NCBI RefSeq assembly: GCF_009914755.1
Contig: NC_060941.1
Source: the human T2T-CHM13v2.0 reference genome, Homo sapiens
Strand: one strand, 5' to 3'
Length of the DNA stretch: 64,000 bases
The notes beneath the pieces were generated by a model, which saw nothing but the letters and a program-made list of their open reading frames with translations, did not search any database and was not told the DNA's origin. Below are positions 9,200 to 15,160 of this stretch, one piece after another (position 1 is the stretch's first letter; each line of letters starts with the position of its first letter). The position numbers were made by a program, and so were the translations under genes.

Positions 9200-9238
9200 C
9201 ATGCAAGACATTGAACAAACCATTTTAACCTCTCTGAG
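9200..9238 (+). mobile_element. MIR, left part (split by the L1PA insertion)
   Basis: TTGAACAAACCATTTTAACCTCTCTGAG continues after the L1 as ACCTCTGAGACTCAGTTTCCTTATCCATAAAAT. Confidence 0.65.
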
Positions 9239-9719
9239 GCGGTTCCAAGATGGCCGAATAGGAGCAGCTCCAGTCTACAGCTCCCAGCATGAGAGACGCA
9301 GAAAACGGGTGATTTCTGCATTTCCAGCTGAGCTTTGAAGAGAGTAATGGTTCTCCCAGCACGGAGTTTGAGATCTGAGAACGGACAGACTGCTTCCTCA
9401 ATTGGGTCCCTGACCCCCGAGTAGCCTAACTGGGAGGCACTCCCCAGTGGGGGCAGACTGACACCTCACACGGCTGGGTACCCCTCTGAGACAAAACTTC
9501 CAGAGGAACGATCAGACAGCAACATTTGCTGTTCTGCAGCCTCCACTGCTGATACCCAGGCAAACAGGGTCTGGAGTGGGTCTCCAGCAAACTCCAACAG
9601 ACCTGCAGCTGAGGGTCCTGACTGTTAGAAGGAAAACTAACAAACAGAAGGGACATCCACACCAAAACCCCATGTGTACATCACCATCATGAAAGACCAA
9701 AGGTAGATAAAACCACAAA

Positions 9720-10735
9720 ATGGGGAAAAAACAGAGCAGAAAAACTGAAAATTCTAAAAATCAGAGTGCCTCTCCTCCTCCAAAGGAACACAGCTCCTCA
9801 CCAGCAACAGAACAAGGCTGGACAGAGAATGACTTTGACGAGTTGAGAGAAGAAGGCTTCAGATGGACAAACTTCTCCGAGCTAAAGGAGGAAGTTCGAG
9901 CCATCGCAAAGAAGTTAAAAACCTTGAAAAAAGATTAGACGAATGGCTAACTAGAATTACCAATGTAGAGAAGGCCTTAAATGACCTGATGGAGCTGAAA
10001 ACCATGGCAGGAGAACTATGTGACGAATGCACAAGCTTCAGTAGCCAATTTGGTCAGCTGGAAGAAAGGGTATCAGTGATTGAAGATCAAATGAATGAAA
10101 TGAAGTGAGAAGAGAAGTTTAGAGAAAAAAGAATAAAAAGAAATGAACAAAGCCTCCAAGAAATATGGGACTATGTGAAAAGACCAAATCTACATCTGAT
10201 TGGTGTACCTGAAAGTGACGAGGAGAATGGAACTAAGTTGGAAAACACTCTGCAGGATATTATCCAGGAGAACTTCCCCAACCTAGCAAGGCAGGCCAAC
10301 ATTCAAATTCAGGAAATACAGAGAATGCCACAAAGATACTCCTCGAGAAGAGCAACTCCAAGACACATAATTGTCAGATTCACCAAAGTTGAAATGAAGG
10401 AAAAAATGTTAAGGGCAGCCAGAGAAAAAGGTTGGGTTACCCACAAAGGGAAGCCAATCAGACTAACAGCTGATCTCTCAGCAGAAATTCTACAAGCCAG
10501 AAGAGAGTGGGGGCCAATATTCAACATTCTTAAAGAAAAGAATTTTCAATCCAGAATTTCATATCCAGCCAAACTAAGCTTCATAAGTGAAGGAGAAATC
10601 AAATCCTTTACAGACAAGCAAATGCTGAGAGATTTTGTCACCACCAGGCCTGCCCTACAAGAGCTCCTGAAGGAAGCACTAAACATGGAAAGGAACAACC
10701 GGTACCAGCCACTGCAAAAACATGCCAAATTGTAA
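9720..10735 (+). pseudogene. L1 ORF1p (RNA-binding), disrupted
   Basis: MGKKQSRKTENSKNQS… through …YQPLQKHAKL*. Frameshift near 9900 and in-frame TGA at 10106-10108. Confidence 0.95.
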
Positions 10736-10798
10736 AGACCATTGATGCTAGGAAGAAACTGCATCAACTAACAAGCAAAATAACCAGCTAACATCAAA

Positions 10799-14631
<3,833 letters not shown>

Positions 14632-14829
14632 ACAATGAGAACACTTGGACACAGGAAGTGGAACATCACACACCGGGGCCTGTTGTGGGGTGGGGGGAGG
14701 GGGGAGTGATAGCATTAGGAGATATACCTAAAGTAAATTTTGAGTTAATGGGTGCAGCACACCAACATGGCACATGTATAGATATGTAACAAACCTGCAT
14801 GTTGTGCACATGTACCCTAGGACTTAAAG

Positions 14830-14834
<5 letters not shown>

Positions 14835-14886
<52 letters not shown>
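14835..14886. repeat. (TA)26 perfect microsatellite at the position of the L1 poly(A) tail
   Basis: 52 bp of uninterrupted TA, followed by CATA-type units to about 14900. Confidence 0.95.
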
Positions 14887-14890
<4 letters not shown>

Positions 14891-14900
14891 CATATACATA

Positions 14901-15080
14901 AAAAGAAAAAATCTATAAAGAAGGCAGAAAAATAGAATGTTTAGAAGAAAAAGTTAAATAATGAGCAATATTCTTATCAATAAAAATAGTTGGCAGAAAA
15001 CCACTGAAGTGCTGTTAACATAAAAGTTTATACCTAAATTATCACTCAAAATAAAGGCAAAAATAAATACAAAAAAAAAA
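14901..15080 (+). other. L1 3' transduction (non-L1 segment, AATAAA, A-tail)
   Basis: Unique sequence between the L1 3' end and the right TSD. AATAAA at 14979, 15050 and 15062; A-run at 15071-15081 directly before the TSD. Confidence 0.8.
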
Positions 15081-15160
15081 ACCTCTGAGACTCAGTTTCC
15101 TTATCCATAAAATTGTGATACTGATACCAACATCACAAGTTGCTATGCAAATGAAATAAG
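15081..15160 (+). mobile_element. MIR, right part
   Basis: CCTCTGAGACTCAGTTTCCTTATCCATAAAATTGTGATACTGATACC…TTGCTATGCAAATGAAATAAG. Confidence 0.7.

What the first reader, a model, noticed from the sequence alone, without database searches (positions are those of the whole stretch)
14835..15089. The same spliced L1 carries a ~170-bp 3' transduction that barcodes its source element
Seen: after the L1 3' end and the TA tract come about 170 bp of non-L1 sequence (14901-15070), AATAAA at 15050 (15 nt before the A-run) and at 15062, an A-run at 15071-15081, and only then the second TSD copy AACCTCTGAG. The left copy is AACCTCTCTGAG at 9227-9238, preceded by TTTT, an endonuclease-like TT/AA site. The MIR interrupted at 9238 resumes at 15081, so everything between arrived as one insertion. 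Inference: one transcript was both spliced in its 5'UTR and read through the L1 poly(A) site. This allows a SpIRE to be assigned to its unspliced parent locus and to siblings, and allows a test of whether particular donor loci favour splicing. This is the strongest lead in the window.
Basis: partly seen in the sequence, partly recalled or inferred. Interest (0 to 1): 0.8.

Follow-up and report, generated by a model that had tools for sequence, protein, structure and literature searches.

The report
Catalogued spliced L1 with 3' transduction
A spliced human L1 retrotransposon carries about 170 bases copied from chromosome 6, most likely picked up by read-through transcription, but this was already noted in print and the chromosome 6 site now holds no L1, so the tag names a place and not a parent element.

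Summary
L1 homology ends at 14835. A TA tract follows (14830-14900), then 14902-15069, which occurs at only one other place in T2T-CHM13: chr6:8406754-8406925, minus strand, 7 mismatches in 168, no gaps. The chr6 copy continues past the window's A-run point without an A-run. The whole unit is flanked by AACCTCTCTGAG / AACCTCTGAG. The 5'UTR junction at 9335|9336 is an exact GT..AG splice.

A 3' transduction is the best reading (about 0.75). The barcode idea does not deliver here. The chr6 locus has no young L1 directly 5' of the stretch or anywhere in the 10 kb upstream. An old paralogue runs straight across the boundary, so chr6 looks like a clean empty site. No sibling copy exists in the genome. 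The parent therefore cannot be examined in this genome.

The finding is not new. Larson et al. 2018 (PLoS Biol, S1 Data and S1 Table) list this element as SpIRE(97/622)-110, PA5. They record "putative 3' 239 bp transduction", "Perhaps", and a chromosome 6 match of 94.2% over 172 bp.

Interest is low.

The parts
9227..9238 (+). Left target-site duplication copy, AACCTCTCTGAG, preceded by TTTT. On the bottom strand this reads GGTT/AAAA, an L1-endonuclease-like TT/AA nick site.
   Evidence: Read directly. Larson S1 Table gives the same nick, GGTT/A.
9239..14835 (+). L1 body: full-length 5' end, spliced 5'UTR, both reading frames broken. Published as SpIRE(97/622)-110, subfamily PA5.
   Evidence: The 5' start GGCGGTTCCAAGATGG matches the native 5' ends of 8 of 8 other spliced copies examined. 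The 3' end is set by homology to another L1. The longest stop-free frame on the + strand is 218 aa. The name and subfamily come from Larson S1 Data and S1 Table.
9327..9345 (+). Splice junction CTGAG|CTTTGAAG at 9335|9336.
   Evidence: In the unspliced copies L020 and L021 the two sides lie about 490 nt apart. L021 shows CTGAG|GTACC at the donor and GACAG|CTTTG at the acceptor. Of the 43 rows returned, 25 span the junction and 15 start at query position 93.
14830..14900 (+). TA dinucleotide tract plus ACATACATATACAT, at the position where the source element's poly(A) tail should sit. The L1's own terminal AATAAA is not present.
   Evidence: Tandem Repeats Finder, direct reading, and the hexamer scan, which finds none between 14835 and 14978.
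14902..15069 (+). The stretch copied from chr6:8406758-8406925 (minus strand): the putative 3' transduction.
   Evidence: 161 of 168 identical, no gaps, the only other copy in the genome.
15050..15055 (+). AATAAA 14-19 nt upstream of the poly(A) addition point; the likely signal used. The chr6 copy now reads AACAAA here.
   Evidence: mismatch at 15052, T against C. Which hexamer was used is inferred.
15062..15067 (+). Second AATAAA, conserved on chr6, but only 2-7 nt from the poly(A) addition point.
15071..15079 (+). Short poly(A) tail of the inserted transcript. The A-run extends to 15081 because it merges with the AA of the TSD.
   Evidence: At the same point chr6 reads AAAATTCACATG.
15080..15089 (+). 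Right target-site duplication copy, AACCTCTGAG.
   Evidence: Read directly.

Best explanation
An L1PA5-age source element once sat on chromosome 6, directly upstream of what is now CHM13 chr6:8406925 (minus-strand sense). One of its transcripts was spliced in the 5'UTR (donor at position 97, acceptor at 622). The same transcript ran past the L1's own weak or TA-disrupted poly(A) site. It was cleaved about 170 nt downstream, after an AATAAA in the flanking DNA. That RNA was inserted by target-primed reverse transcription at a TT/AA nick on chr17, producing a 10-12-nt target-site duplication. The source element was never fixed, or was lost, in the lineage leading to this genome, so only its empty site remains.

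Shown: the structure of the insertion, the splice, the unique chr6 parent stretch, and the absence of an L1 there.
Inferred: that an L1 ever sat at chr6, that the first AATAAA was the signal used, and that the TA tract descends from the source's A-tail.
For: 1. The copied stretch sits between the complete L1 3' end and the 3' TSD, in sense orientation. It is followed by an A-run that the parent locus lacks.
2. It has exactly one other copy in a 3.1-Gb telomere-to-telomere genome, with 161 of 168 positions identical and no gaps. The chr6 copy extends on both sides into unrelated unique sequence, so chr6 is the donor.
3. An AATAAA lies 14-19 nt before the poly(A) addition point.
4. The 5' edge of the copied stretch on chr6 falls at TTTC/AAAAAC, an A-rich site of the kind L1 endonuclease uses. 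This is weak evidence, because the region is A-rich throughout.
5. The 4.2% divergence (95% CI 1.7-8.4%) fits a roughly 20-Myr event under recalled neutral rates. It also fits the published PA5 assignment.
6. The junction is an exact GT..AG splice, so a single RNA carried both features.
7. The authors of the SpIRE catalogue read it the same way, with 'Perhaps'.
Against: 1. No young L1 lies next to the chr6 stretch. The window's L1 body gave 0 hits in L002 (3.2 kb around the match) and 0 in L003 (the 10 kb upstream).
2. A chr16 paralogue aligns straight across the boundary (41 of 47), so the site shows no scar.
3. No sibling insertion shares the tag. Nothing independent therefore shows that an L1 ever fired from chr6.
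4. The first AATAAA reads AACAAA on chr6 today.
5. The poly(A) tail is only about 9 nt.
6. The search tool warns that it skips very common words and scores only the best candidates, so the copy counts are lower bounds.
Confidence: 0.75

Rival explanations
1. Template-switch (or RNA-ligation) chimera. Reverse transcription started on a polyadenylated non-L1 RNA transcribed from the chr6 locus. After about 170 nt it jumped onto the poly(A) end of a spliced L1 RNA. The result is L1 + A-tract + chr6 piece + poly(A) inside one TSD, with no L1 ever resident on chr6.
For: The chr6 site is empty and unscarred. The layout, a complete 5' partner followed by a 5'-truncated polyadenylated 3' partner in the same orientation inside one TSD, is that of known L1 chimeras. 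I saw this described in passages of bioRxiv 10.1101/2025.02.02.635956. The junction is A-rich, which would favour a jump onto a poly(A) tail.
Against: This needs a germline polyadenylated transcript from the chr6 spot. The only gene lead I tested, exons of one transporter family, lies at least 109 kb away, and no gene table for the chr6 locus was on hand. In the passages I read, the known chimeras carry small RNAs, Alu or mRNA exons as the 5' partner and a truncated L1 as the 3' partner. A full-length L1 as the 5' partner of a non-genic RNA is not among them. From recall, read-through transduction is far more frequent.
Confidence: 0.1
2. Two separate events. The L1 inserted first with an ordinary A-tail. 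Later a short, 5'-truncated retrocopy of a chr6 transcript landed inside that A-tail, and its own TSD is hidden in the A-rich sequence.
For: A-tails are good endonuclease targets (established knowledge). A-rich sequence lies on both sides of the stretch (AAAAAG at the left edge, the A-run on the right), so an A-only TSD cannot be excluded from the sequence alone.
Against: No distinct second TSD is visible. It needs the same unsupported chr6 transcript as the first rival, plus a second hit at exactly this spot. The divergence of the stretch (4.2%) gives no sign of a younger event, but the interval is wide.
Confidence: 0.08
3. The stretch is filler DNA captured at the DNA level during repair of the integration site, or the similarity reflects some other chr6-chr17 DNA exchange that does not involve RNA.
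For: Only the empty parent site.
Against: The stretch ends exactly after an AATAAA and carries an A-run that the donor lacks. That is the signature of a cleaved and polyadenylated RNA. Its orientation is the sense of the L1.
Confidence: 0.03

Closest known systems
SpIRE(97/622)-110 of Larson et al. 2018, PLoS Biol 16:e2003067 (PMC5860796), S1 Data and S1 Table
   Same: It is this very element. The hg38 filled site is chr17:15355149-15361094, with flanks identical to the window. [quoted passage not shown]
   Different: The table gives a 7-nt TSD plus 11 untemplated 5' nucleotides. The 5' ends of 8 of 8 other spliced copies show that GGTTCC belongs to the L1, so a 10/12-nt TSD differing by one CT unit fits better. 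The row I read does not say whether chr6 carries an L1. Here it does not.
L1 3' transduction (Moran et al. 1999; Goodier et al. 2000; Pickeral et al. 2000: recalled, and the last two seen only as references)
   Same: Flanking DNA sits downstream of a complete L1 3' end. It ends at a downstream poly(A) signal with a new A-tail, and the whole unit lies inside one TSD.
   Different: The parent locus holds no L1 in this genome, and there is no sibling family.
SpIRE(97/622)-13 (PA3) in the same S1 Table
   Same: A spliced L1 with a 3' transduction (705 bp) and a second copy elsewhere (chromosome 5, 96.1% identical), called 'bona fide' by the authors. The combination of splicing and read-through is therefore not unique to this element.
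   Different: A different element, age and length. I did not examine its parent locus.
SpIRE lineage traced by transduced sequence: the L1PA2 SpIRE in RAP1GDS1 (bioRxiv 10.1101/2025.02.02.635956)
   Same: Extra sequence carried by L1 copies is used to tie insertions to a SpIRE source locus (passages seen).
   Different: There the tag is a 5' transduction of gene exons and the source SpIRE is still present. Here the tag is 3' and the source is gone.

Membership tests
L1 3' transduction | Non-L1 sequence lies directly downstream of a complete L1 3' end, in the same orientation, inside the element's TSD. | tested here: met
   L1 homology ends at 14835. The stretch is 14902-15069. The TSD copies are at 9227-9238 and 15080-15089.
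L1 3' transduction | The extra sequence ends at a poly(A) signal and is followed by an A-tail that the donor locus lacks. | tested here: met
   AATAAA at 15050 and 15062 and an A-run at 15071-15081. At that point chr6 reads AAAATTCACATG.
L1 3' transduction | The extra sequence matches a single-copy locus elsewhere, which extends beyond it on both sides. | tested here: met
   There are 2 places in the whole genome, the window itself and chr6. The chr6 flanks are unique apart from a 47-nt old paralogue.
L1 3' transduction | A source L1 lies directly 5' of the donor stretch. This is corroborating rather than defining, because source elements can be unfixed. | tested here: not met
   The window's L1 body gave 0 hits in L002 and 0 in the 10 kb upstream (L003). 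Only this one genome could be tested.
L1 3' transduction | The pre-insertion site in an outgroup lacks both the L1 and the extra sequence. | not testable with these tools
   No primate genome is held.
SpIRE 97/622 | A 5'UTR deletion whose ends coincide with the L1 splice donor (GU after position 97) and acceptor (AG before position 622). | tested here: met
   The window reads CTGAG|CTTTGAAG. Unspliced L021 has CTGAG|GTACC ... GACAG|CTTTGAAG with about 490 nt between. The position numbers are those of Larson et al..
SpIRE 97/622 | Hallmarks of retrotransposition: TSD, endonuclease-like nick site and a 3' A-tail. | tested here: met
Template-switch L1 chimera | Two RNAs in the same orientation inside one TSD, with the 3' partner 5'-truncated and polyadenylated. 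| tested here: inconclusive
   The layout fits but is equally what a transduction gives. I looked for no transcript from the chr6 stretch itself: the one gene family I located lies at least 109 kb away, and no gene table of that locus was on hand.

The most novel reading that the evidence does not exclude
The 170 bp might not be read-through at all. Reverse transcription could have begun on an unrelated polyadenylated chr6 RNA and then jumped onto the poly(A) end of a spliced, full-length L1 RNA. The full-length L1 would then be the 5' partner of a chimera. That would explain why the chr6 site is a clean empty site with no sibling insertions.
Probability: 0.1. Interest if true: 0.4.

Novelty: already known. 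Interest (0 to 1): 0.15.

Why it matters
If the parent element were still present, a transduction tag on a SpIRE would let one ask two questions. Was the parent unspliced? Do particular loci yield spliced offspring more often than others? For this element the tag leads to an empty site with no siblings, so neither question can be answered from the human genome. The element and its putative transduction are already in a published catalogue. The small gains here are a whole-genome check in a complete assembly, the statement that the parent site is empty, and a corrected TSD. The general idea, using the handful of transduction-bearing SpIREs in Larson's S1 Table to trace parents, remains open. 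It is better tested on SpIRE(97/622)-13, which carries a 705-bp tag.

Tried and rejected
1. Ancient L1 ORF1 origin of the chr6 stretch. By eye its translation resembles the C-terminal half of ORF1p. tblastn with the window's own ORF1 part gave E 6.4 on chr6. A DNA local alignment scored 38, and 19 of 200 shuffles reached that score. This is not significant, so I make no claim.
2. Pfam scan of the chr6 and window stretches.
3. MIR continuity. The left flank scored no better than shuffles against the one MIR-like copy at hand. Only the right flank matched.
4. The parent stretch as an extended 3'UTR of the nearby transporter gene. UAA-family exons lie at chr6:8.284-8.297 Mb, at least 109 kb away. 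That this gene is SLC35B3 is recalled.
5. Splicing of the read-through transcript from a distant upstream L1. I rejected this because the L1 3' end in the window is complete and no L1 lies in the 10 kb upstream on chr6.
7. Szak et al. 2003, on families defined by transduced sequences, is not held. One literature search gave nothing useful.
8. Not examined: chr6:8396758-8405257, which lies downstream of the stretch and does not bear on a source.

Full report
**What is there**

The window is human chr17 (CHM13 15252001-15316000). At 9227-9238 the sequence reads AACCTCTCTGAG, preceded by TTTT. An L1 follows directly, beginning GGCGGTTCCAAGATGG at 9239.

Homology to another L1 3' end stops at window 14835 (...CTTAAAGTATAATA). 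This comes from a local blastn against an older L1 piece in L004, which ends the same way. After the L1 come:
- a TA tract at 14830-14900;
- an A-rich but complex stretch, with A 89, T 40, G 23, C 18 of 170;
- AATAAA at 14979, 15050 and 15062, and an A-run at 15071-15081;
- AACCTCTGAG at 15080-15089.

Every coordinate in the finding is therefore right. The two flank copies differ by one CT unit.

**The splice**

A whole-genome search with window 9239-9640 returned 43 rows; 40 of 5,449 candidates were scored.
- 25 rows, the window itself and 24 others, span the query without a break.
- 15 rows begin at query position 93.
- 3 short rows cover positions 3-94 a few hundred bases upstream of three of those 15.

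I fetched two such unspliced copies. In them the two sides of window 9335|9336 lie about 490 nt apart. L021 reads CTGAG|GTACC at the first break and GACAG|CTTTGAAG at the second. The window's CTGAG|CTTTGAAG is thus an exact GT..AG splice product. The 5' ends of 8 of 8 other spliced copies carry GGTTCCAAGATGG preceded by one to a few G-rich bases. The L1 in the window is therefore full-length at its 5' end and starts at about 9239.

**The extra 170 bp**

A whole-genome search with 14901-15070 found two places only: the window itself and chr6:8406758-8406925 on the minus strand (96%, E 7e-71). Local blastn gives 164 of 172 identical without gaps, for window 14902-15073. Over 14902-15069 there are 7 mismatches in 168 (4 transitions, 3 transversions). 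That is 4.2%, with a 95% interval of 1.7-8.4%.

On chr6 the sequence runs on past the window's A-run point as AAAATTCACATGAAG, with no A-run. Upstream it runs on as ...GTAGAATTTCAAAAAC. chr6 is therefore the donor, and the window copy is a cleaved, polyadenylated derivative.

The hexamer at 15050 lies 14-19 nt before the poly(A) addition point. On chr6 it now reads AACAAA. The hexamer at 15062 is conserved but lies only 2-7 nt from that point.

**The parent locus is empty**

The window's L1 body (9239-14900) gave no hit in the 3.2 kb around the chr6 match (L002). It gave none in the 10 kb upstream in the sense of the match (L003). It hit only an older L1 piece 10-20 kb downstream (L004).

A search with 381 nt of chr6 spanning the 5' edge of the copied stretch found three places: itself, the window, and a 47-nt paralogue on chr16. 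That paralogue aligns straight across the edge, 41 of 47. The chr6 site therefore looks like an unscarred empty site.

No third copy of the tag exists in the genome, so there are no siblings. The search tool warns that counts are lower bounds.

UAA-family transporter exons lie at chr6:8.284-8.297 Mb, at least 109 kb away. The stretch is therefore not an extended 3'UTR of that gene.

**Mechanism**

The most likely history is an ordinary L1 3' transduction:
1. A source L1 of PA5 age sat directly 5' of the chr6 stretch.
2. One transcript was spliced 97/622 and also read through into the flank.
3. It was cleaved after the flank's AATAAA and inserted at a TT/AA nick on chr17.
4. The source was polymorphic and was lost.

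The 4.2% divergence fits roughly 20 Myr under recalled neutral rates, with a very wide interval, and it fits the published PA5 label.

The L1's own terminal AATAAA is absent from this copy; TA repeats take its place. Whether the source already lacked it, which would have forced read-through, cannot be told.

Two rivals need no source L1:
- a template switch from a non-L1 chr6 RNA onto the poly(A) end of a spliced L1 RNA;
- a later nested retrocopy in the L1's A-tail.

Both need a polyadenylated chr6 transcript for which I have no evidence. Sequence from one genome cannot exclude either.

**Prior art**

Larson et al. 2018 (PMC5860796) list this element in two supplements (passages seen).
- S1 Data: "Clone 110; PA5; SpIRE(97/622)-110", filled site hg38 chr17:15355149-15361094, with the same flanks as the window.
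- S1 Table: nick GGTT/A, TSD 7, Transduction "Perhaps", "5' 11 untemplated, putative 3' 239 bp transduction", "TA dinucleotide repeat in 3' poly (A). [quoted passage not shown]

The same table calls the 705-bp transduction of SpIRE(97/622)-13 bona fide. The main text treats SpIREs as dead on arrival and does not use transductions to trace parents (passages). A 2025 preprint traces offspring of a SpIRE through a 5' transduction (passages).

- The tag is unique in a complete genome.
- The parent site is empty and unscarred.
- There are no siblings.
- The TSD is better read as 10/12 nt, because GGCGGTT is native L1 sequence and CTGAG recurs on the right.

**Weak points**
- MIR identity of the left flank was not shown (162 of 300 shuffles reached its score). 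Only the right flank matched a MIR-like copy.
- My impression that the chr6 stretch is an ancient L1 ORF1 remnant was not significant (E 6.4; 19 of 200 shuffles).

**Verdict**

The barcode reaches a locus but no element. The finding is already in print, and interest is low.

Noticed in passing
window 14830-14900: The L1's own terminal poly(A) hexamer is absent: the element runs from ...AAAGTATAATA straight into about 26 TA units. If the source copy already looked like this, read-through into the flank would have been obligatory and not occasional.
   Followed up: no
window 14979-14984: A third AATAAA lies inside the copied stretch and is conserved on chr6. It was bypassed by the transcript that became this insertion.
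   Followed up: partly
L002 1400-1760 (chr6, minus strand) and window 14902-15069: Read in frame, the chr6 parent stretch resembles the C-terminal half of L1 ORF1p (KNKEKIYKEGRK......KLSLKTKAKINK...). The 'non-L1' tag may therefore be a very old L1 remnant lying in the same orientation. The statistics did not bear this out (E 6.4; 19 of 200 shuffles).
   Followed up: partly
window 9239-14835: Both L1 reading frames are broken into pieces. The longest stop-free frame on the + strand is 218 aa.
   Followed up: no
genome-wide: Among the 40 scored 5'UTR matches, 24 other loci carry the same contiguous 97/622 junction. The best is only 90% identical to this element over 402 nt. Unspliced copies reach 95% over the part downstream of the junction. 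No near-identical spliced relative was seen.
   Followed up: no
L007 (chr16:76949565-76952611): It holds the 47-nt paralogue of the chr6 boundary on the + strand. It also holds a separate ORF1-like remnant on the - strand (tblastn E 4e-05). These are probably two old L1 pieces in opposite orientation.
   Followed up: no
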